Notes: generated by a model not told the origin, from the sequence alone. DNA of 64,000 bases from Bacillota bacterium (GCA_023428025.1 JAEYZN010000039.1:9439-73438), one strand, 5' to 3'. Numbered from the stretch's first letter, positions 3,814 through 11,077 are shown. Numbers and translations are program-made.

Positions 3814-4626
3814 ATGACTTCAAACGAGAAAACATATGGCATCGGAGAATTGGCGAAGGCGACCGGCTTAACCGTGCGCACATTGCAGCACTATGACAAC
3901 ATCGGGCTTTTGCCGCCATCGGGACGCACTGAGGGTGGACGCCGGTATTATACCGACAGCGATATGCTGAAGCTGACCCAGATCGTGTTCTATAAATCTG
4001 TCGGCATATCCCTGTCGGACATCCGCGAAAAGCTGTCGAATTCTCCCACGCCGGTTGAGCTGGAAGGCGTATTCAGCCGGCAGCTGACAGTGCTGTTAAA
4101 GAAAATTGACGCGCTGCATATGGCCCTGTCGGTACTGAGCTCCACGATTGATATTCTCAGATCCGGCGGCGAGCCGCCGTTTGAGACCCTGGCTCAGCTT
4201 ATACGCGCCATGGATGGCAGCAGTCTGAACGATTGGGCCGGCTTCGAGTTTGGCGCTGCGTTGAACGAAAGCCTTGAAGGGAGCGGGCTCACCACCCTGG
4301 GCGGCGCGATAGATTTCTATCACACCATGCGTGAACTGATGGTGGAGGCCGTGGCGCTCAGCAACACGAACACGGCAGCCGACAGCCCCGCCGCGCTGAA
4401 CCTTGGCCGGCGCTGGTGGGAGGAGGTCATCCTCAGGGTGACTGCCGGCGGCGATGATGCCGCTCTTGCTGCGCTGGCAGTCAACAATGACCGCGCAATG
4501 TGGCCGGAGGCCGACCGCAAGCTGTTTGAAGCCGCCGAACCGTTTATCGAAGCGGCTCTCGCCGCTTACATCGATAAAAACAAAATCGTCATATCCGTAC
4601 CCCAGCCAGGAGGTGATTCGCAATGA
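3814..4626 (+). CDS. MerR-family transcriptional regulator
   Basis: YGIGELAKATGLTVRTLQHYDNIGLL...GGRRYY HTH. AGAGGTGA RBS. The ORF-track start 3793 lies inside the -10 box, so 3814 is preferred. Confidence 0.9.
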   Translation: MTSNEKTYGIGELAKATGLTVRTLQHYDNIGLLPPSGRTEGGRRYYTDSDMLKLTQIVFYKSVGISLSDIREKLSNSPTPVELEGVFSRQLTVLLKKIDALHMALSVLSSTIDILRSGGEPPFETLAQLIRAMDGSSLNDWAGFEFGAALNESLEGSGLTTLGGAIDFYHTMRELMVEAVALSNTNTAADSPAALNLGRRWWEEVILRVTAGGDDAALAALAVNNDRAMWPEADRKLFEAAEPFIEAALAAYIDKNKIVISVPQPGGDSQ

Positions 4627-5504
4627 CCGAGAGCATTACCGTAAAAAATCTGTACAAATCGTATGGGAAAAAGCAGGTCCTGCGCGGTGTGTCGTTTCGC
4701 GTGAAGCAAGGCGAAACGTTTGGCCTGCTCGGCGTCAACGGCGCAGGCAAGACGACGGCCATTGAGTGCATAGAAAACATGCGCAAGCCCGACAGCGGCG
4801 AAGCCGTGGTCAACGGCACGCTCGGCATCCAACTCCAAAGCACGTCGTTACCCGAAGCCATGACTGCAAAAGAGGCCATGCAGGTTTTCTGTTCTTGGCA
4901 TAAAGTGCCGTATCGCGGCGCATTGCTGGAACGGTTCGATATGGCGGGCGAGTATTTGAATAAAACCTATGCGTCGCTCTCCACGGGAAGAAAGCGGAGG
5001 CTGCATCTGGCGCTCGCCCTGTGCCACAGCCCCAGCGTGCTGATTCTGGACGAGCCCACGGCAGGGCTTGACGTGGAGGGCAGAAACGCGCTGCACGCCG
5101 AGATACGCAAGCTGAACGCGGCGGGCGTGAGCATACTCATGGCCACCCACGACATGGCGGAGGCCGAAGCCTTATGCCATCATATCGCCATTTTGCGCGG
5201 CGGCGTGATCGCCCGCGAGGGGACGCCGATGGAGTTAACGGCAAACGCCAGCGTTCAAAGCCGCGTTTTCATAAAGACCCGCGGCAACAGCCTCGATGGT
5301 TTTGTGCCTGAGGGCGAACCTACAGCCGATGGTTACCTGTCCTTTCCGTGCAAAAGCGCCGCGGAATTCCTGTTGCCGCTGCTTTCGCATATTCGCGCAA
5401 GCCGCGACGATGTGATGGATTTGCGCGTGGAACGGGCAAGCATAGAGGATATTTTCCTTGAAGTCGCAGGCGAGAATCACCCGGCAGGAGGCGAGAAAAG
5501 ATGA
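4623..5504 (+). CDS. ABC transporter ATP-binding protein
   Basis: Walker A GVNGAGKTT, signature LSTGRKRRL, Walker B LILDEPT. ATGA start/stop overlap with merR. Confidence 0.95.
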   Translation: MTESITVKNLYKSYGKKQVLRGVSFRVKQGETFGLLGVNGAGKTTAIECIENMRKPDSGEAVVNGTLGIQLQSTSLPEAMTAKEAMQVFCSWHKVPYRGALLERFDMAGEYLNKTYASLSTGRKRRLHLALALCHSPSVLILDEPTAGLDVEGRNALHAEIRKLNAAGVSILMATHDMAEAEALCHHIAILRGGVIAREGTPMELTANASVQSRVFIKTRGNSLDGFVPEGEPTADGYLSFPCKSAAEFLLPLLSHIRASRDDVMDLRVERASIEDIFLEVAGENHPAGGEKR

Positions 5505-6220
5505 AGGCGTTTTTTATCCAGCTCTGGGTACAACTGAAAATGGACTTGAGGGACAAGGGCACTCTGATGGTCTATTACCTCGTACCGCTGGTGTTTTATC
5601 TGGTCATGGGGAGCATCATGAAAGCCATCGCCATGGACGCGCAAATCCCTCTGATTCTATCCATCACGATTTTTGCCCTGTCGATGTCGGCATTTTTGGG
5701 GATGCCGCAAAATCTGGTCAAAGCGCGTGAGCAGGGTATTCTGGAGGCGTACCGTGCCGCGGGCGTTCCGGCGTGGAGCTTGCCGCTGGCAACGATTATC
5801 CTGTCGACGCTGCACATGATGTTTGTGGCGATTGTCATCTTCGTTACCGCACCGTACCTGTTCGGTGCGGCGCTGCCGGAAAATATTCCGATACACTTTT
5901 TGGCTGTTCTGCTGGTTGCGCTTTGCTCGGAGGGCTTGGGCGCGCTGCTGGCCTGTCTGGTCAAAAAGCAGAACACCATGACATTGGCGGCGCAATGCCT
6001 GTTCTTGCCAAGCATCATGTTTTCGGGGATCATGTTTCCGGCACAGCTGCTGCCAAAACCCATGCAATGGCTGGGCATGGCCTTGCCCGCCACGCAGGGC
6101 GTGCGCCTGCTTGACGGCAGCGCGCTTGCCGCAGCGCCGCTTGCCATACTCTGCGGGCTGACCATTGCGTCCTTTGCGGCGTCAGCGGTCCTGTTCAAAC
6201 GGATTGGTATACGAAGGTAA
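5501..6220 (+). CDS. ABC-2 type transporter permease
   Basis: Six hydrophobic segments. ATGA overlap with the ATPase gene. Confidence 0.8.
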   Translation: MKAFFIQLWVQLKMDLRDKGTLMVYYLVPLVFYLVMGSIMKAIAMDAQIPLILSITIFALSMSAFLGMPQNLVKAREQGILEAYRAAGVPAWSLPLATIILSTLHMMFVAIVIFVTAPYLFGAALPENIPIHFLAVLLVALCSEGLGALLACLVKKQNTMTLAAQCLFLPSIMFSGIMFPAQLLPKPMQWLGMALPATQGVRLLDGSALAAAPLAILCGLTIASFAASAVLFKRIGIRR

Positions 6221-6638
6221 GACGTCTTTGAGCGATCGGAATGCCCGCAGCAAATTGGACAGGCTTTTCGGAGAGCCCCTTTTCTACAGGCATTTCCGCA
6301 TCCCTTCTCATAACCGCGCCCTGAACGGCTGCATCTATTTTGGCTACACGTTAAACAAACGGGCACTACACACCTGCTTTGCCTGATGCGGCTTTGCCGT
6401 AATGGTGCGGCTGTAACGGCAAAAGCAACAACAGCGGTCAAGGTTTTGGCCTTGGCTGCTGTAGATTGAAGCTGCAAATAAGCCGGCTGATAAGCATATC
6501 CTCTCATTTCTCTGCGCCCTTTTGCCATGCCATCATGTCCATGCACAGCAAATCCCAAGGTATTCAAAACACAAGCTTTGTACGGTAACCAGAGTTCTCT
6601 GATTTTTCCGGCAGTGTCGAATAATTTGTTTTTTTGTC

Positions 6639-6700
6639 TTGACAAGGCCGGATTACTGATGTAATCTACGGTTATATTATATAGGCTACATATGTAATCT
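6639..6700 (+). promoter_or_regulatory. blaI-like promoter with BlaI/CopY-type TACA/TGTA operators
   Basis: TTGACA 6639-6644, 17 nt, TAATCT 6662-6667. Dyad ATTAC-N4-GTAAT (6652-6665). TACATATGTA (6687-6696) lies inside CTACA...TGTAG. TGTAATCT occurs twice. Confidence 0.55.
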
Positions 6701-6716
6701 GTAGAGGGGGAATGTT

Positions 6717-7097
6717 ATGAATAAGCTGGCTGAAAGAATAGCAGATTCCGAACTCGAGGTCATGCGGGTGTTGTGGGATGCGAAGACCGCCTTGCCTGTT
6801 GCCGAGATTCGCAAAGAAATCTGTAAAAAGACCGGCTGGGAGGGTTCCACCGCCAAGACTTTGCTGTATCGCCTGCAAAGCAAGGGCGTGGTGGCGCAGG
6901 AAAGGCGGGAGGTGTACTACTACTCTCCCCGTGTCACGGAGGATGAATATAACGAGTATACGACGCAGACGCTGATCGATAAGCTCTATAAGGGCAGCGC
7001 GAAAAATCTGATCGCCTCGTTTATATCATCCAAAAAACTGAGCGACGACGATATCACCGAATTACAAAATATATTACGGGGCGGCAAGAAAAGATGA
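6717..7097 (+). CDS. BlaI/MecI/CopY-family transcriptional repressor
   Basis: SELEVMRVLW...TAKTLLYRLQSKGVV winged helix, 126 aa, AGAGGGGGA RBS. Confidence 0.9.
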   Translation: MNKLAERIADSELEVMRVLWDAKTALPVAEIRKEICKKTGWEGSTAKTLLYRLQSKGVVAQERREVYYYSPRVTEDEYNEYTTQTLIDKLYKGSAKNLIASFISSKKLSDDDITELQNILRGGKKR

Positions 7098-8932
7098 ACA
7101 ACACGATCCTGACCATTCTTTCGCTCAGCGCGTCCGGCTCAGTTCTGGCCCTGATCCTCCTTGCACTGCGGCCGCTTTTGAAAAACAAGGTCTCCAAAAC
7201 GTTCCAGTATTATATCTGGCTGCTGGTGCTGCTGCGGCTGGCGTTGCCGCTATCCTTTGACGGCAGCATCATGAGCCAGATCATTCCTCAAACGGGCATG
7301 ACACCGGTGCCGGTGGTTTCAACCCCTGACGATGGCAATGGAATAACGCAGGGGGATAATACACCGCAGGGCAATGAACCAAATACCCCGCCGGAGGTCG
7401 CGCCATCCGGCATGGCGCCGAATGGCAACGCTGCACCGAACCCGAACCTCCCGGCAGCGTCCGAACCCACGCGGTTCAACATTTGGCAGTTTGCTTTGGA
7501 CCATCTGACCGCCATATGGCTGCTGGGCGCGGCGCTGTATCTCGGCTGGTTTGTCACCGCTTATCTGCGTTTCAGCCGAAAACTCAGAAAAACCAGCATT
7601 CGGCCCCACCCCCAGGACATGGAGGTCTATGCCAAGCTGCGCAGCCATACGCGCGTGCGGCTGGTCTGCAATCCGTATATCAATACCCCCATGCTGATCG
7701 GGTTCTTATCCCCGTGCATCGTGATCCCGCAGCTGGCGTACGCCGAAAACGGAATGAAATCGGATCTCCGGCATATCCTGCGGCATGAGCTGACGCATTA
7801 CCGCCGCCGCGACCTGCTGTATAAATGGTTTGTCGTATTGGTCAGCGCTTTGCACTGGTTCAATCCGCTGATGGTCCTGGTGCGGCGGGAGGTCAGCCGG
7901 ACTTGCGAGCTGTCGTGTGACGAGGCGGTGATACGTTCCCTGGATGCCGCTGAGCGGCAGGATTACGGAGAGACCCTGCTCGCCATTGCGTCAAGCAAAC
8001 GGCTCCCCACCGGGGTCGTAACGACGACAATGTGTGAAGGAAAACGTGAATTGAAAGAAAGGTTGGAAAGCATCATGACATATAAAAGCAAAAGCGTATT
8101 CATGGTGGCCGTTTCTCTCATTTTGGCACTGTTGCTTGCCGGGTGCAGCGTGGCGCTTGGCGCGGCAAGCGTCACTCAAATGCCCGATGAAGCTTCTCTA
8201 TCCCCCACGGCAACGGACACGTCCGGTGTTTCAACAAGTCCTGATGTTGAAGCGTCCCCATCCCCCGCGGCAACGGATACTCCCGATGTTTCGACGATAC
8301 CCGGAGTTGAAGCGTCCCAGTCCCCCACAGCCACGGACGCCTCCGGTGCTCCGACAAGGCCTTCTTCTCCCAATAGTGCGGCGTTGGAAGCATATAATGC
8401 GGTATTACAGAATCAGGCTGAGTTTTTCAGCACCGATGTCAATAAAAATTTAAATATAAGCCAATTAAACCAAGCAATCAGTTCGGAAGTTGTTACCGTA
8501 GATGTGGCAAGCTTTGCCGTTATCGATATAGGACATGGAGGGGTGCCGGCAGTTATTCTATCGCTTAACGTGAATGGTAACGGTTATGGCGTTGAAGTTT
8601 TAAGCTATCAGGATGGTATCGTTTATGGTTACACTTTTTCCGGAAGACAGTTTGGCGATCTGAGGACTGACGGAACATTTGTAGCTTCCGGCGGTGCGGC
8701 TGACGTTGGCATCTGTACCATTGCTTTTGACAAAAACACATACTTGATCGATAAATTTACTTATAGCGAATCAAATACCGATTCAGAAAACAATATGAGC
8801 GTGTCTTACTTTGTTAATCATCAAAGCGCCACGGAAGATGAGTATAATGCGGCTTTCAGCCAATGGCAGAAGATACCGTATGTAACGTGGTACGATTTTA
8901 CTGCTGCTAATATGGGTACAAAGTTGTCTTAG
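7094..8932 (+). CDS. BlaR1-like M56 sensor metalloprotease fused to TM/linker/unknown C-terminal ectodomain
   Basis: HELTHYRRRD zinc motif, N-terminal TM helices, ATGA overlap with blaI. The C-terminal part is paralogous to 9030-9932. Confidence 0.9.
   Translation: MNNTILTILSLSASGSVLALILLALRPLLKNKVSKTFQYYIWLLVLLRLALPLSFDGSIMSQIIPQTGMTPVPVVSTPDDGNGITQGDNTPQGNEPNTPPEVAPSGMAPNGNAAPNPNLPAASEPTRFNIWQFALDHLTAIWLLGAALYLGWFVTAYLRFSRKLRKTSIRPHPQDMEVYAKLRSHTRVRLVCNPYINTPMLIGFLSPCIVIPQLAYAENGMKSDLRHILRHELTHYRRRDLLYKWFVVLVSALHWFNPLMVLVRREVSRTCELSCDEAVIRSLDAAERQDYGETLLAIASSKRLPTGVVTTTMCEGKRELKERLESIMTYKSKSVFMVAVSLILALLLAGCSVALGAASVTQMPDEASLSPTATDTSGVSTSPDVEASPSPAATDTPDVSTIPGVEASQSPTATDASGAPTRPSSPNSAALEAYNAVLQNQAEFFSTDVNKNLNISQLNQAISSEVVTVDVASFAVIDIGHGGVPAVILSLNVNGNGYGVEVLSYQDGIVYGYTFSGRQFGDLRTDGTFVASGGAADVGICTIAFDKNTYLIDKFTYSESNTDSENNMSVSYFVNHQSATEDEYNAAFSQWQKIPYVTWYDFTAANMGTKLS
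8037..8447 (+). repeat. Segmental duplication, copy 1 (inside the BlaR1-like gene)
   Basis: Aligns with 9027-9440 over about 410 bp. Most positions are identical by eye, with one 3-nt indel. Confidence 0.9.
8189..8368 (+). repeat. Three tandem 60-bp (20-aa) Pro/Thr/Ser-rich linker repeats
   Basis: EASLSPTATDTSGVSTSPDV / EASPSPAATDTPDVSTIPGV / EASQSPTATDASGAPTRPSS. Confidence 0.9.
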
Positions 8933-9026
8933 ATTTAGATTGCATCAATGCCTGTGAATTGGCCTTTGGAATGAATGTTTATAAACTGTTGCTGCTGAAT
9001 TTCTATCTATAAGTTTGGTTATTGCA

Positions 9027-9440
9027 ACAATGTGTGAAGGAAAACGCGAATTGAAAGAAAGGTTGGAAAGTATCATGACATATAAAAGCAGAAGCGTATT
9101 CATGGTTGCCGTATCTCTTGTTTTGGCGCTGTTGCTTGCCGGCTGCAGCGTGGCGCTTGGCGCGGTAAACGCGACAAATCAAATACCCGATGAAGCTTCC
9201 GAATCCCCCGCAGCCACGGACACCCCCAGTGTTTCGACAAGTTCTGAGGTTGAAGCGTCCCCGTCCCCCACGGCGACGGACACGCCCAGCGTGACAACAA
9301 GTCCTGACGTTGAAGCGTCCCCGTCTCCCGCAGCAGCGGACACCTCCGGTATTGCGACAAGGCCTTCTTCTGCCAATAGTCCGGTATTGGCAGCATACAA
9401 TGCGGTATTGCAGAATCAGGCCGAATTCTTCAGTACGGAT
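9027..9440 (+). repeat. Segmental duplication, copy 2 (5' end of the lipoprotein paralogue)
   Basis: See 8037-8447. Homology starts inside sequence that is coding in the BlaR1-like gene. Confidence 0.9.
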
Positions 9441-9932
9441 AATAAGAAAAAATTAAAATTGAACGACTTTTTGACCAACAAAGAGATTTATGAAACGACC
9501 TTCAGTGTCACGCGCTTTACGGTGCTCGACATGGACGGCGACAACGTGCCTGAGGTTGTGCTTGAATTGTCGGTCGCGAATGAACCACAGTTCTATGAAG
9601 TCCTGCATTATATGGACGGAGCCGTTAATGGATACCTTATTCCATACAGGGGGTTAACAGAGCTAAAAGCGAATGGAACATTCTTTTTTTCAGGCGGTGC
9701 AGCAGATAGCGGAGTCGGAAAATTGAAATTCGAGTCAACGGCCTATACAACCGACAGGTTGGGGTACAGTCAGTCCAGTCAGGGCGATACCACCTTGACC
9801 ATATCATACTTCATCAATAATCAATCCGCTACAAAGGAAGCCTTTGATTCCTTCATGAATGGACAATCCGGGAAGAAAGGTGCGGACTGGTACGAGTTTT
9901 CTCAAGCGAATATCGAAGCTGAGCTTTCTTAA
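9030..9932 (+). CDS. Lipoprotein paralogous to the C-terminal sensor region of the BlaR1-like protein
   Basis: MTYKSRSVFMVAVSLVLALLLAGC signal peptide plus lipobox. ATG at 9030 or 9075. Same 20-aa repeats (9192-9371) and a homologous C-terminal domain. Confidence 0.75.
   Translation: MCEGKRELKERLESIMTYKSRSVFMVAVSLVLALLLAGCSVALGAVNATNQIPDEASESPAATDTPSVSTSSEVEASPSPTATDTPSVTTSPDVEASPSPAAADTSGIATRPSSANSPVLAAYNAVLQNQAEFFSTDNKKKLKLNDFLTNKEIYETTFSVTRFTVLDMDGDNVPEVVLELSVANEPQFYEVLHYMDGAVNGYLIPYRGLTELKANGTFFFSGGAADSGVGKLKFESTAYTTDRLGYSQSSQGDTTLTISYFINNQSATKEAFDSFMNGQSGKKGADWYEFSQANIEAELS
9192..9371 (+). repeat. Three tandem 60-bp Pro/Thr/Ser-rich linker repeats (paralogue)
   Basis: EASESPAATDTPSVSTSSEV / EASPSPTATDTPSVTTSPDV / EASPSPAAADTSGIATRPSS. 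Confidence 0.9.
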
Positions 9933-9973
9933 AATCCATAACAGCCCAGCATGATTCTAAAACAACAGTCAAA

Positions 9974-10008
9974 AGCGGCTTGCTTCAAAAGCAGGCTGCT
10001 TTTATATT
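9974..10008 (+). terminator. Rho-independent terminator after the lipoprotein gene
   Basis: AGCGGCTTGC / GCAGGCTGCT stem (two G-U pairs) followed by TTTTATATT. Confidence 0.5.
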
Positions 10009-10090
10009 ACGTATACACCATAACCGCGCAAGGCGTGCTATAATAGACAGGCAGCAAGCCAAGCATCATGTGACCAACAGGAGACCCTCA

Positions 10091-11077
10091 ATGAAGATTT
10101 TTGTCTACAACCTGCGCGAATACGATGAAAAGCCTTACTTCGACCGGTTCTGCGCCGAGCACCATCTGGAATACGCCTACGTATCGAAATACCCGGCTCT
10201 GGAGAACGCCGAACTGGTGCGCGGCTGCGAGGCGGTCAACATCATCACCAGCCCCACCGACGCCGCCCTGCTCCGGCGATGGCATGACCTGGGCGTCAGA
10301 TACATCGCGACCCGCACCATCGGGTTCGAGCATATCGACATCGCGGCGGCGCGCGCGCTGGGCATGCGGGTGGCCAGCATCAGCTACTCGCCGGACAGCG
10401 TCGCCAACTACGCCATCATGCTCATGCTGATGGCCTGCCGCAACATCAGCCATATCATCCAGCGCGCCAAGCTGCAGGACTACACGCTGCGCGGCAAGAT
10501 CGGCCGCGAGCTGTCCCGCAGCACCGTGGGCGTGATCGGCACCGGGCGGATAGGCCGCACCGTCATCGGGCATCTCAGCCGTTTCGGCTGCAAGCTGCTC
10601 GCGTACGACGCTTACCCGGACGAGGCTGTGGCGCAAAACGCCGAGTATGTGCCGCTGGATACGCTGCTCTCCGAAAGCGACATCATCACGCTGCACGCGC
10701 CGCTGAACGACGGCACCCGCCACCTGATCGGCCGGGACGCCGTCGCGAAAATGAAGCCGGGCGTCATCCTCGTGAACACGGCGAGAGGGGCGCTGGTGGA
10801 CACCGCCGCGCTGATCGAGGGGCTGGACAGCCATCATATCGGCTTTGCCGCGCTGGACGTGCTGGAGAACGAGCACGGCCTATATTACTTCAACCGCATG
10901 AACGAGGTGATCGGCAACCACGAGCTCGCGATCCTGAGTTCATACCCCAACGTCATCCTGACGCCCCACACCGCCTTCTACACCGAGGAGGCCGTGTCCA
11001 ACATGGTGGAGAACTCTATTCTGGGGCTGCTCAGCTTTGAGCAGGGCGGGCCCAGCCCGTTTGAGGTGCAGGCCTGA
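10091..11077 (+). CDS. D-isomer-specific 2-hydroxyacid dehydrogenase (D-lactate dehydrogenase-like)
   Basis: MKIFVYNLREYDE..., NAD fold GVIGTGRIGRTV, family-typical C-terminal LTPHTAFYT. TGcTATAAT-type box near 10040. Confidence 0.9.
   Translation: MKIFVYNLREYDEKPYFDRFCAEHHLEYAYVSKYPALENAELVRGCEAVNIITSPTDAALLRRWHDLGVRYIATRTIGFEHIDIAAARALGMRVASISYSPDSVANYAIMLMLMACRNISHIIQRAKLQDYTLRGKIGRELSRSTVGVIGTGRIGRTVIGHLSRFGCKLLAYDAYPDEAVAQNAEYVPLDTLLSESDIITLHAPLNDGTRHLIGRDAVAKMKPGVILVNTARGALVDTAALIEGLDSHHIGFAALDVLENEHGLYYFNRMNEVIGNHELAILSSYPNVILTPHTAFYTEEAVSNMVENSILGLLSFEQGGPSPFEVQA

What the first reader, a model, noticed from the sequence alone, without database searches (positions are those of the whole stretch)
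7094..9932. BlaR1-like sensor protease whose anchor-linker-ectodomain end has been duplicated into a free lipoprotein gene, with mosaic divergence
After the M56 core (HELTH) the 612-aa protein runs through a TM segment ending in a lipobox-like LLAGC. A linker of three 20-aa P/T/S repeats follows, then a roughly 200-aa ectodomain I cannot assign.

Bases 8037-8447 recur at 9027-9440 with most positions identical by eye. The second copy starts inside what is coding sequence in the first (MCEGKRELKERLESIMTYK...), so it derives from the 3' part of the blaR1-like gene. It now reads as a genuine lipoprotein precursor.

Beyond the linker the two ectodomains are clearly homologous (AYNAVLQNQAEFFSTD, SGGAAD, YF[VI]N[HN]QSAT) but far more diverged than the 5' 400 bp. 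A near-identical anchor and linker with a diverged sensor domain suggests recent gene conversion or diversifying selection. It also raises the idea of a soluble or lipid-anchored co-sensor or decoy for the BlaI/BlaR1 switch.
Basis: partly seen in the sequence, partly recalled or inferred. Interest (0 to 1): 0.7.

Follow-up and report, generated by a model that had tools for sequence, protein, structure and literature searches.

The report
Sensor-domain swap in a BlaR1-like regulator
A BlaI/BlaR1-type membrane signalling gene replaced its outer sensor domain with one taken from a free lipoprotein gene, and the old sensor survives just downstream as a separate lipoprotein gene, which shows how these regulators change what they sense.

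Summary
Bases 8027-8454 recur at 9027-9457 at 92% then 80% identity. Beyond about 8420/9420 identity falls to 43-58%.

The two ectodomains are not diverged duplicates.
- The downstream free ORF carries the ancestral sensor (e2). It is 79-84% identical to the sensor of the nearest full-length M56 relatives, and its dS matches the M56 core.
- The ectodomain now fused to M56 (e1) nests among free lipoproteins. It is 89% identical in protein, and 8382-8938 is 92% identical in DNA to such a gene.
- The crossover lies inside the conserved AVLQNQA|EFFSTD motif, at about 8419.

So this was a roughly 1-kb recombination. It swapped the sensor and stranded the old TM4-linker-e2 segment as a lipoprotein ORF. 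blaI, M56-e1 and e2 form one operon, with BlaI-type boxes upstream and a terminator only after e2.

The ectodomain family is large (about 1,900 clusters at E<=1e-10). It has no Pfam family and no PDB fold match, despite a model with pLDDT 95.6.

In 115 of 120 related M56 proteins, whatever their ectodomain, the last TM helix ends in a canonical lipobox at a fixed offset. The sensors may therefore be lipid-anchored, and perhaps cleaved off.

Ligand and function are unknown.

The parts
6639..6696 (+). Promoter and operator of the operon. The -35 is TTGACA (6639-6644) and the -10 is TAATCT (6662-6667), with a 17-nt spacer. Two BlaI/CopY-type dyads are present: GATTAC-N4-GTAATC (6651-6666) and TACATATGTA (6687-6696).
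   Evidence: Read directly from the sequence. The palindrome at 6680-6703 was found. The exact box CTACATATGTAA is unique in the 64-kb window. That TACAnnTGTA is the BlaI/MecI/CopY operator consensus is from my own knowledge.
6717..7097 (+). blaI-like winged-helix repressor, 126 aa. It overlaps the M56 start by 4 nt.
   Evidence: Pfam Penicillinase_R, E 1.1e-28, profile positions 1-114 of 115. The best NCBIfam hits are BlaI and CopY/TcrY, all below their cut-offs.
7094..8026 (+). M56 zinc-metalloprotease core of the signal transducer (aa 1-311), with HELTH at aa 231-235.
   Evidence: Pfam Peptidase_M56, E 4e-56. It aligns to S. aureus BlaR1 structures 8exp/8exs with E 2e-10. It is 83-93% identical in DNA to the orthologue in L006.
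8027..8418 (+). H1. It comprises the M56 tail (MCEGKRELKERLESIM), TM4 ending in the lipobox LLAGC (Cys351, 8144-8146), three 20-aa P/T/S repeats, and the first half of the conserved head motif AYNAVLQNQA.
   Evidence: Repeat family. Alignment with the orthologues. Tandem repeat at 8188-8338. Lipobox statistics.
8419..8932 (+). e1 ectodomain body and stop codon, captured from a free-lipoprotein lineage.
   Evidence: 8382-8938 is 91.9% identical in DNA to the free lipoprotein gene of L002 (P0124). Diagnostic sites switch from copy-2-like to L002-like between 8418 and 8421. The domain is 89% identical in protein to P0121 and P0124, against 41% to e2. Against P0124, dS is 0.198 and omega 0.18. GC is 41%, against 56% for the window.
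8939..9026 (+). Filler DNA of unknown origin between the end of homology to the free-lipoprotein gene and the start of H2. It is AT-rich (34% GC) and shows no terminator.
   Evidence: It has no match in any fetched locus or elsewhere in the window. Its fold is no more stable than shuffled sequence, z -0.45. No promoter or terminator was called.
9027..9421 (+). H2, the duplicate of H1. Here it is the 5' end of a separate ORF. Candidate starts are ATG 9030, TTG 9051 and ATG 9075. From ATG 9075 it gives MTYKSRSVFMVAVSLVLALLLAG|C, with the lipobox Cys at 9144-9146. Three P/T/S repeats follow.
   Evidence: The gene callers of the public assemblies used the TTG at 9051, giving 293 aa (P0001).
9422..9932 (+). 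e2 ectodomain body and stop codon. This is the ancestral sensor of this M56 lineage, now encoded as a free lipoprotein.
   Evidence: 9025-9940 is 82-84% identical in DNA to the 3' part of the M56 orthologues L003, L004 and L005. It nests among M56-fused domains in the tree. It is 84% identical in protein to P0152. Against P0152, dS is 0.47 and omega 0.19. The AF2 model has pLDDT 95.6.
9971..10012 (+). Intrinsic terminator closing the blaI-M56(e1)-e2 transcription unit.
   Evidence: A 15-bp hairpin with dG -20.7 kcal/mol, z -5.9 and 0 of 200 shuffles as stable. UUUUAUAUU follows it.

Best explanation
The locus is an autoregulated three-gene operon. It encodes a BlaI-type repressor, an M56 (BlaR1-like) membrane metalloprotease transducer, and a lipoprotein.

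The M56 protein belongs to a subfamily from Bacillota (mostly Clostridia). In that subfamily the last TM helix has the form of a lipoprotein signal peptide: KxRL..IM.YKKK, a hydrophobic core, then L[AT]GC. An S/T/P linker and an interchangeable ectodomain follow.

In the ancestor, as in the nearest relatives today, the ectodomain was the e2 type. A recombination of about 1 kb then placed an e1-type ectodomain behind TM4 and the linker.
- The e1 body came from a free-lipoprotein gene.
- The 5' crossover lies in the motif AVLQN(Q/K)A|EFFSTD, which both lineages share.
- The 3' junction was illegitimate and left 88 bp of filler.
- The tail-TM4-linker segment ended up duplicated.

The displaced segment starts exactly at an in-frame Met (M312). 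Its TM4 is a ready-made lipoprotein signal peptide. It therefore survived as an independent, co-transcribed lipoprotein gene.

Shown here: the anatomy, the ancestry of each piece, the crossover point, the operon structure, and the conserved lipobox.

Inferred:
- The e-domain senses an unknown extracytoplasmic cue. M56 then cleaves BlaI and the operon is derepressed.
- The swap changed input specificity. e1 lacks the acidic D-x-D-x-D-x-x-x-E loop that e2 keeps.
- The e2 lipoprotein is expressed and kept by selection.
For: Ancestry of the two ectodomains:
- In a tree of 207 ectodomains, e2 nests among M56-fused domains and e1 among free lipoproteins.
- e2 is 84% identical to P0152 and 82% to P0159, both fused. 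e1 is 89% identical to P0121 and P0124, both free. e1 and e2 are 41% identical to each other.
- 26 full-length M56 homologues (P0150-P0174) score 200-330 bits against e2 but only 80-140 bits against e1.
- 8382-8938 is 91.9% identical in DNA to the free lipoprotein gene in L002. 9025-9940 is 82-84% identical to the 3' ends of the M56 orthologues.
- Diagnostic bases locate the crossover at about 8419.
- e2 and the M56 core diverge equally from P0152, with dS 0.47 and 0.54.

Locus organisation:
- Orthologous loci hold only blaI and M56-e2.
- H1 and H2 share derived features: three linker repeats, VFMVAVSL and TRPSS.
- BlaI-type boxes sit in the promoter.
- A terminator follows e2, and none separates the M56 gene from e2.

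Selection on e2:
- Omega on the window e2 branch is about 0.4.
- The ORF is intact. Under neutral evolution its survival would be 1.6-9.5% for d = 0.10-0.20.

Independent precedent: L060 holds another free e-lipoprotein. A decayed M56 tail lies upstream of it and no M56 gene is present.

Lipobox: 115 of 120 M56 homologues have it, with the Cys at a fixed offset.
Against: - No expression, lipidation or BlaI-cleavage data exist for this organism.
- The ligand and the regulon are unknown.
- The arrangement is unique among 59 related loci, so e2 could be a leftover.
- Omega on the e2 branch (about 0.4) is higher than on the fused orthologues (0.10-0.18).
- No Shine-Dalgarno sequence or promoter specific to e2 is evident.
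- The copies differ by dS 0.26-0.43, about as much as each differs from P0151. H1 could therefore have come in with foreign DNA instead of arising by in-place duplication.
- The 5' part of the M56 core is closest to P0150, while e2 is closest to P0151 and P0152. The history may thus involve more than one recombination.
- No donor e1 gene from this same genome is available.
- All sequences come from metagenome assemblies.
Confidence: 0.8

Rival explanations
1. The 3' end of the blaR1-like gene was duplicated in tandem into a new lipoprotein gene. The two ectodomains then diverged fast under diversifying selection, or the 5' 400 bp was homogenised by gene conversion.
For: The tail-TM-linker segment really is duplicated. 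The two ectodomains are homologous at 41% identity. Divergence jumps sharply at about 8420.
Against: - Each ectodomain has far closer relatives elsewhere than its neighbour. e1 is 89% identical in protein and 92% in DNA to free lipoprotein genes. e2 is 79-84% identical to M56-fused sensors.
- Both evolve under purifying selection against those relatives, with omega 0.18-0.19.
- The break coincides with a switch of nearest relative at a conserved motif.
Confidence: 0.04
2. The same recombination history, but the downstream e2 ORF is a non-functional remnant that has not yet decayed. Only blaI and M56-e1 matter.
For: - The arrangement is unique among 59 loci.
- Omega on the window e2 branch is raised (about 0.4, against 0.10-0.18).
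- No dedicated promoter or strong ribosome-binding site is present.
Against: - A 285-300-codon ORF is intact although the copies differ by dS 0.26-0.43. Neutral survival would be 1.6-9.5% from substitutions alone.
- The signal peptide and lipobox are intact.
- The tail/TM part has omega 0.11 between the copies.
- The ORF lies inside the operon, upstream of the terminator.
- A similar truncated derivative persists elsewhere, in L060.
Confidence: 0.2
3. A variant of the history. The genome once carried a resident blaI-M56-e2 gene. A foreign or paralogous blaI-M56-e1 cassette that already existed was inserted or recombined in. It deleted the resident gene up to codon 311, so copy 2 is a beheaded second M56 gene and not the product of an in-place duplication.
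For: - The 5' part of the M56 core is closest to P0150 (dS 0.38), whereas e2 is closest to P0151 and P0152 (dS 0.47, against 0.76 to P0150).
- H1-H2 divergence is as large as the divergence between species.
- The left boundary is sharp and followed by unrelated filler.
Against: - No M56 protein with an e1 domain of this clade was found among the top 120 full-length hits or the 52 GTDB loci.
- H1 and H2 share derived linker features that the orthologues lack.
- From about 7830 onwards H1 is as close to P0151 as H2 is.
Confidence: 0.25
4. Assembly artefact. A metagenome assembler joined an M56 gene to a free lipoprotein gene from another organism through the shared motif.
For: All data are metagenome assemblies. 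The junction lies in a conserved motif. The e1 body has lower GC (41%) than the window (56%).
Against: - The exact 612-aa protein occurs on 4 contigs of up to 469 kb, from ENA, NCBI and Logan assemblies.
- The shared motif gives only about 11-20 identical bases.
- A chimera would not produce a second diverged H copy and then continue in-frame into e2 and the flanking genome.
- The e2 body also has low GC (44%).
Confidence: 0.03

Closest known systems
BlaI/BlaR1 and MecI/MecR1 of Staphylococcus aureus (M56 sensor-protease plus winged-helix repressor)
   Same: A two-gene repressor/M56 module. An HExxH zinc protease sits between TM helices. A K.RL tail and TM4 lead to an extracellular sensor. Dyad operators overlap the module's own promoter.
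   Different: There is no penicillin-binding/transpeptidase sensor. NCBIfam blaR1_generic scores 131 bits against a cut-off of 400. The sensor is a 185-aa beta-rich domain that belongs to no known family. TM4 ends in a lipobox that S. aureus BlaR1 lacks. No beta-lactamase or PBP2a gene is linked.
Non-canonical BlaIR systems such as CenIR of Clostridioides difficile (Kurtz et al. 2026, PMC13492132)
   Same: BlaI plus an M56 protein with a C-terminal region that does not bind beta-lactams. That paper reports 254 M56 architectures. Only about 6% have a transpeptidase domain, and the commonest class is 'M56 plus no identifiable domain'.
   Different: The C-terminal region of CenR is short and predicted to be disordered. 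Here it is a confidently folded domain (pLDDT 95.6) that also exists as a large free-lipoprotein family. The paper does not mention lipoboxes or lipoproteins.
Bacterial lipoproteins processed by Lgt and LspA
   Same: Copy 2 has a positively charged n-region, a hydrophobic core and L-A-G-C followed by Ser. The free family members have equivalent N-terminal lipoboxes (120 of 149 non-fused sequences by a simple pattern).
   Different: In the M56 proteins the same signal sits about 320 residues into a polytopic protein. Whether Lgt or LspA act on such an internal signal is not known. I found no paper describing it.
Modular sensor swapping in other one-pass or polytopic signalling proteins (for example RsgI anti-sigma factors, histidine kinases, chemoreceptors)
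   Same: A conserved transmission module is combined with interchangeable extracytoplasmic sensor domains. M56 relatives here carry BNR/sialidase-like, FG-GAP, M23, LRR or e-domains.
   Different: This locus preserves both the incoming and the displaced sensor side by side, with the crossover mapped to a few bases. The comparison with those families is from my own knowledge and was not tested.
FG-GAP/PliI-like calcium-loop proteins (for example XAC2610, PDB 4qtq)
   Same: e2-type domains carry a D-x-D-G-D-x-x-P-E loop. Weak sub-threshold FG-GAP_3 hits occur in 17 of 46 members. One PliI hit is borderline. 4qtq is the top Foldseek hit.
   Different: The Foldseek hit has E 0.056 and TM 0.27, which is not significant. 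There is no sequence match to PDB. The e1 clade lacks the acidic loop altogether. The resemblance is a short motif only, not family membership.

Membership tests
BlaI/MecI/CopY repressor family (Pfam PF03965) | A winged-helix Penicillinase_R domain over the full length | tested here: met
   E 1.1e-28, profile positions 1-114 of 115, 100 bits against a cut-off of 22.6.
BlaI/MecI/CopY repressor family (Pfam PF03965) | A TACA/TGTA dyad operator in its own promoter (autoregulation) | tested here: met
   TACATATGTA at 6687-6696 and GATTAC-N4-GTAATC at 6651-6666 overlap the -10. Binding itself was not tested.
Peptidase M56 (BlaR1/MecR1-type transducers) | An M56 domain with an HExxH zinc site, embedded among TM helices | tested here: met
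   PF05569, E 4e-56, profile positions 2-296 of 296. HELTH at aa 231-235. Aligns to BlaR1 structure 8exp with E 2e-10.
Bona fide beta-lactam sensor BlaR1/MecR1 | A C-terminal penicillin-binding (transpeptidase, PF00905) sensor domain | tested here: not met
   No PF00905 hit. NCBIfam blaR1_generic scores 130.8 bits against a cut-off of 400 and matches only aa 136-349.
Bona fide beta-lactam sensor BlaR1/MecR1 | A linked beta-lactamase or PBP2a target gene | tested here: not met
   The neighbours are an ABC transporter, a MerR-family regulator and a VanH-like D-lactate dehydrogenase.
Bacterial lipoprotein (Lgt/LspA substrate): the copy 2 product | An N-terminal signal peptide with a positive n-region, a hydrophobic core and a lipobox [LVI][ASTVI][GAS]C | tested here: met
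   MTYKSRS-VFMVAVSLVLALL-LAGC-S from ATG 9075. The longer n-regions from 9030 or 9051 also fit.
Bacterial lipoprotein (Lgt/LspA substrate): the copy 2 product | Actual diacylglyceryl modification and signal peptidase II cleavage | not testable with these tools
   This needs lipid labelling, globomycin treatment or mass spectrometry.
The 'e-domain' family (unnamed; profile A1 built here) | A full-length match to the 184-position profile | tested here: met
   e2 scores 288 bits (E 1.5e-87) and e1 scores 241 bits (E 3.4e-73), each over profile positions 2/3-184. The family has 1,924 clusters at 50% identity with E<=1e-10.
The 'e-domain' family (unnamed; profile A1 built here) | The acidic loop D-x-D-x-D-x-x-x-E (nearly invariant D51, D55 and E59 of the profile) | tested here: inconclusive
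   e2 has LDMDGDNVPEV. e1 and its whole free clade have IDIGHGG(V/T)PAV, so only the first Asp is kept. The loop is therefore not universal in the family.
Any Pfam or PDB family, for the ectodomain | A significant sequence or fold match | tested here: not met
   Pfam gives nothing above noise. A PDB profile search gives a best E of 0.025, to an unrelated epimerase. Foldseek against PDB gives 0 hits at E<=1e-3, with best TM 0.27.

The most novel reading that the evidence does not exclude
In this M56 subfamily the lipobox at the end of TM4 is a genuine internal Lgt/LspA site.
- The sensor ectodomain would be lipidated and cut away from the protease, and would then signal to it non-covalently as a lipoprotein.
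- Fused and free forms would then be nearly equivalent. That would explain why e-domains move between M56 genes and free lipoprotein genes.
- In this window, one M56 protease would be served by two alternative lipoprotein sensors, e1 and e2. Their lipid-anchored linkers are almost the same, and both come from one BlaI-controlled operon.
Probability: 0.22. Interest if true: 0.8.

Novelty: new variant of a known kind. Interest (0 to 1): 0.55.

Why it matters
Most BlaI/BlaR1-like systems have no beta-lactam sensor. What they sense, and how they gain new inputs, is an open question (PMC13492132).

This locus is a well-preserved example of how that can happen. A sensor module was exchanged by recombination at a short conserved motif. 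The donor lineage, the crossover and the displaced old sensor are all still readable.

The work also defines a large extracytoplasmic domain family that has no annotation. It has about 1,900 clusters at 50% identity and a confident model with no PDB fold match. It is used both as a free lipoprotein and as an M56 sensor.

Finally, it exposes a strictly conserved internal lipobox in a whole M56 subfamily. If that site is processed, the accepted picture of BlaR1-type transducers as single polypeptides would need revision for these proteins. The sensors would also become easy to study as separate lipoproteins.

Tried and rejected
1. Naming the ectodomain. Nothing significant came from Pfam, NCBIfam, a PDB profile search or Foldseek against PDB. 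The FG-GAP, PliI and XAC2610 hints are short-motif resemblances below threshold. I did not adopt them.

2. Genomic context as a clue to function.
- Clustering the neighbours of 45 free family members gave only a generic ABC ATPase, in 9 loci and in mixed orientation.
- An ECF sigma factor follows the gene in L002 and L060. In the set of 45 free loci, which includes L002, one lies within 4 kb in only 3.
- I therefore rejected this as a conserved link.

3. A free lipoprotein as a conserved BlaI/BlaR1 partner. None of the 44 free loci has blaI or M56 within 6 kb.

4. Further window-like or beheaded loci. P0074 looks like another case, but its DNA could not be fetched.

I repeated it with a narrower alignment.

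6. Literature. Searches for 'M56 + lipobox', 'BlaR1 + lipoprotein signal peptidase' and 'internal lipobox' found nothing relevant.

7. Organism name. The cluster look-up gave none. The relatives are Bacillota (mostly Clostridia) MAGs.

8. Choosing among the three start codons of copy 2 from synonymous and non-synonymous changes. The first 16 codons hold only 2 differences, so this was uninformative.

9. The word-index search with e1 missed the query's own protein. Those hit lists are incomplete, so I rebuilt the picture from the full-length search and local HMM scans.

Full report
**1. What is at the coordinates**

Three genes lie on the + strand.
- A 126-aa BlaI-type repressor is at 6717-7097 (Pfam Penicillinase_R, E 1e-28).
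- A 612-aa M56 protein is at 7094-8932 (Peptidase_M56, aa 7-327, E 4e-56; HELTH at aa 231-235).
- An ORF ends at 9932. It can start at ATG 9030, TTG 9051 or ATG 9075.

The repeat is real.
- 8027-8171 matches 9027-9171 at 92%, and 8176-8454 matches 9179-9457 at 80%.
- Its left edge is sharp, three bases before the codon of Met312.
- Each copy contains 2.5-2.7 units of a 60-nt repeat that encodes the 20-aa P/T/S linker.

Codon-aligned identity is 0.76-0.91 up to M56 residue ~445 and then 0.43-0.58. dS is 0.26 in the tail/TM part, 0.43 in the linker, and saturated in the ectodomain bodies.

The exact 612-aa protein is on four contigs from several assemblies, up to 469 kb long. One of them is identical to the window over 13.8 kb.

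**2. The two ectodomains have different ancestries**

I call the M56-borne domain e1 and the free ORF's domain e2. They are 41% identical to each other.

e1:
- Its nearest relatives are free proteins of about 270 aa, 78-90% identical. They have their own signal peptides (MKHVH...LLLIFSGCS) and unrelated linkers.
- One of them, P0124, is not near blaI or M56.

e2:
- The closest full-length relatives of the M56 protein are P0150-P0174. They are 47-66% identical with 97-100% coverage, except P0173, which covers 91%.
- They carry an ectodomain that scores 200-330 bits against e2 but only 80-140 bits against e1.
- e2 is 84% identical to the P0152 sensor, 82% to P0159 and 79% to P0151.

Tree and DNA:
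- In a neighbour-joining tree of 207 domains, e2 sits inside a clade of M56-fused domains. e1 sits inside a clade made up only of free lipoproteins.
- 8382-8938 is 91.9% identical in DNA to the free lipoprotein gene in L002. 9025-9940 is 82-84% identical to the 3' ends of the M56 orthologues.
- The e2 body has diverged from P0152 as much as the M56 core has (dS 0.47 against 0.54; omega 0.19 and 0.23). Against P0124, e1 has dS 0.20 and omega 0.18.

So e2 is the vertically inherited sensor and e1 is the newcomer.

**3. The junctions**

Up to CAGAATCAGGC (8408-8418; 9411-9421 in copy 2), copy 1 follows copy 2 and the M56 orthologues. From GAGTTTTTCAGCACCGATG onward it follows the free lipoprotein gene. 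The crossover therefore lies within the codons of AVLQNQA|EFFSTD, a motif shared by both lineages.

Homology to the free gene ends six bases past the stop codon, at 8938. Bases 8939-9026 match nothing I could fetch and are 34% GC. H2 begins at 9027.

The orthologous loci contain only blaI and M56-e2.

H1 and H2 share features that the orthologues lack: three linker repeats, VFMVAVSL and TRPSS. This favours duplication within this lineage. Two observations leave room for a more complex history.
- The H1-H2 divergence is about as large as the distance to P0151.
- The 5' part of the M56 core is closest to P0150, while e2 is closest to P0151 and P0152.

**4. Operon structure**

A sigma-70-type promoter is present, with TTGACA at 6639-6644, 17 nt of spacer, and TAATCT at 6662-6667. 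It is overlapped and followed by two dyads, GATTAC-N4-GTAATC and TACATATGTA. From my own knowledge, the second dyad fits the TACAnnTGTA consensus of the BlaI/MecI/CopY operator.

Between the M56 stop and e2 there is no terminator-like structure (z -0.45) and no promoter call. A strong hairpin (dG -20.7 kcal/mol, z -5.9) with a U-tract follows e2 at 9971-10012.

The next gene is a VanH-like D-lactate dehydrogenase, scoring 326 bits against a cut-off of 540. It has its own TATAAT.

I infer a blaI-M56(e1)-e2 transcription unit.

**5. Is e2 still in use?**

For:
- The ORF is intact.
- The signal peptide and lipobox are intact.
- The tail/TM part has omega 0.11 between the copies.
- Omega on the window e2 branch is about 0.4.
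- If each copy has accumulated 0.10-0.20 substitutions per site, a neutral ORF of this length would stay open in only 1.6-9.5% of simulations, counting substitutions alone.

Against:
- That omega is above the 0.10-0.18 seen on the fused orthologues.
- The arrangement is unique among the loci examined.

I give about 0.2 to the remnant model.

**6. The ectodomain family**

A profile of 46 diverse members finds 2,629 clusters at 50% identity with E<=1e-3 and 1,924 with E<=1e-10. Members take three forms.
- Most are lipoproteins of 220-300 aa.
- Some are tandem doubles.
- Some are fused to M56, LRR, SH3 or WG-repeat modules.

AlphaFold2 gives a confident, mostly beta model with pLDDT 95.6 and pTM 0.90. 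No PDB fold matches at E<=1e-3; the best hit is 4qtq with E 0.056 and TM 0.27. There is no PDB sequence match and no Pfam or NCBIfam family.

The only recurrent weak signal is an FG-GAP-like loop, D-x-D-G-D-x-x-P-E. It appears in 17 of 46 members at sub-threshold scores. e2 keeps the loop (LDMDGDNVPEV), but e1 and its whole clade have lost it (IDIGHGGVPAV). The swap therefore probably changed what is bound.

Among 52 GTDB-species loci, 8 are blaI plus M56-fused and 44 are free, with no blaI or M56 within 6 kb. The free loci share no conserved neighbour. The family's function remains unknown. A sensing role is inferred only from its position on M56 proteins.

**7. The lipobox**

- In 115 of 120 M56 homologues, whatever ectodomain follows, TM4 ends in L[AT]GC followed by A, S or G.
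- The Cys is exactly 30 residues after the Lys of KERL in 112 of them.
- The Gly and Cys columns are as conserved as the KxRL motif, at 4.2-4.3 bits.

S. aureus BlaR1 aligns over the same helix but has no Cys there. I found no paper that describes this.

A relic of an old fusion would not stay this conserved. Lipid modification of the sensor, and possibly cleavage by signal peptidase II, is a reasonable but untested inference.

This also explains why a beheaded M56 3' end immediately makes a valid lipoprotein gene. L060 is a second, independent case. A free e-lipoprotein there is preceded by a decayed M56 tail (..ETYANIVASNKREGKLDLKERLESIITYKK), with no M56 gene upstream.

**8. Comparison with known systems, and verdict**

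The module is a member of the BlaI and M56 families. It is not a beta-lactam sensor.

It belongs to the recently noted majority class of BlaIR-like systems with unidentified sensors (PMC13492132).

Three things are new here.
- A sensor exchange is mapped to within a few bases, and both the donor type and the displaced sensor are preserved.
- A large, unannotated sensor/lipoprotein domain family is delineated.
- An internal lipobox is conserved across the subfamily.

I rate it a new variant of a known kind, with interest 0.55.

Noticed in passing
window 8135-8146 and 9135-9146; proteins P0149-P0268: 115 of 120 M56 homologues end TM4 with a canonical lipobox, L[AT]GC followed by A, S or G. This holds whatever ectodomain follows (BNR, FG-GAP, M23, LRR or e-domain). 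The Cys sits at a fixed offset of 30 residues after the K of KERL in 112 of them. S. aureus BlaR1 lacks it. No literature was found.
   Followed up: partly
L060 250-1112: A second, independent free e-lipoprotein (P0111). Its 5' region is a decayed M56 tail, with stop codons upstream of ..ETYANIVASNKREGKLDLKERLESII. There is no M56 gene upstream, and an ECF sigma factor lies downstream.
   Followed up: partly
window 8560-8590 (e1) and 9560-9590 (e2), approximately: e2 keeps the family's acidic loop LDMDGDNVPEV, which resembles an FG-GAP calcium loop. e1 and its whole free-lipoprotein clade have IDIGHGG(V/T)PAV, with the acidic residues lost.
   Followed up: partly
window 6717-9932: Base composition is uneven. 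The window and the blaI-M56 core are 56% GC. H1 and H2 are 54%. The e1 body is 41%, the e2 body 44% and the filler 34%. Both sensor bodies are far more AT-rich than the transducer.
   Followed up: no
window 6500-8420 compared with L006, L003 and L004: There is further mosaicism. The upstream region and the 5' two-thirds of the M56 core are closest to the P0150 locus (dS 0.38). H and e2 are closest to P0151 and P0152. This suggests additional homologous exchanges among these operons.
   Followed up: partly
window 10091-11077: The gene after the terminator is a VanH-like D-lactate/D-2-hydroxyacid dehydrogenase. It scores 326 bits on NCBIfam vanH_gen, below the cut-off of 540. It has its own TATAAT at about 10040. 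No other van genes were seen nearby.
   Followed up: no
window 3814-6220: Upstream on the same strand lie a MerR-family regulator with a long C-terminal extension (270 aa) and a DrrA-like ABC-2 exporter pair. Any link to the BlaI regulon is unknown. No second BlaI box occurs in the 64-kb window.
   Followed up: no
L002 7295-8942 and L060 1438-2555: In two loci an ECF sigma factor and a putative membrane anti-sigma protein directly follow a free e-lipoprotein gene. Within the set of 45 free loci, which includes L002, a sigma factor lies within 4 kb in only 3.
   Followed up: yes
tool behaviour: The word-indexed protein search with the e1 domain did not return the query's own 612-aa protein (P0149) or any M56-fused relative. 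Hit lists from that tool can miss even exact matches.
   Followed up: yes
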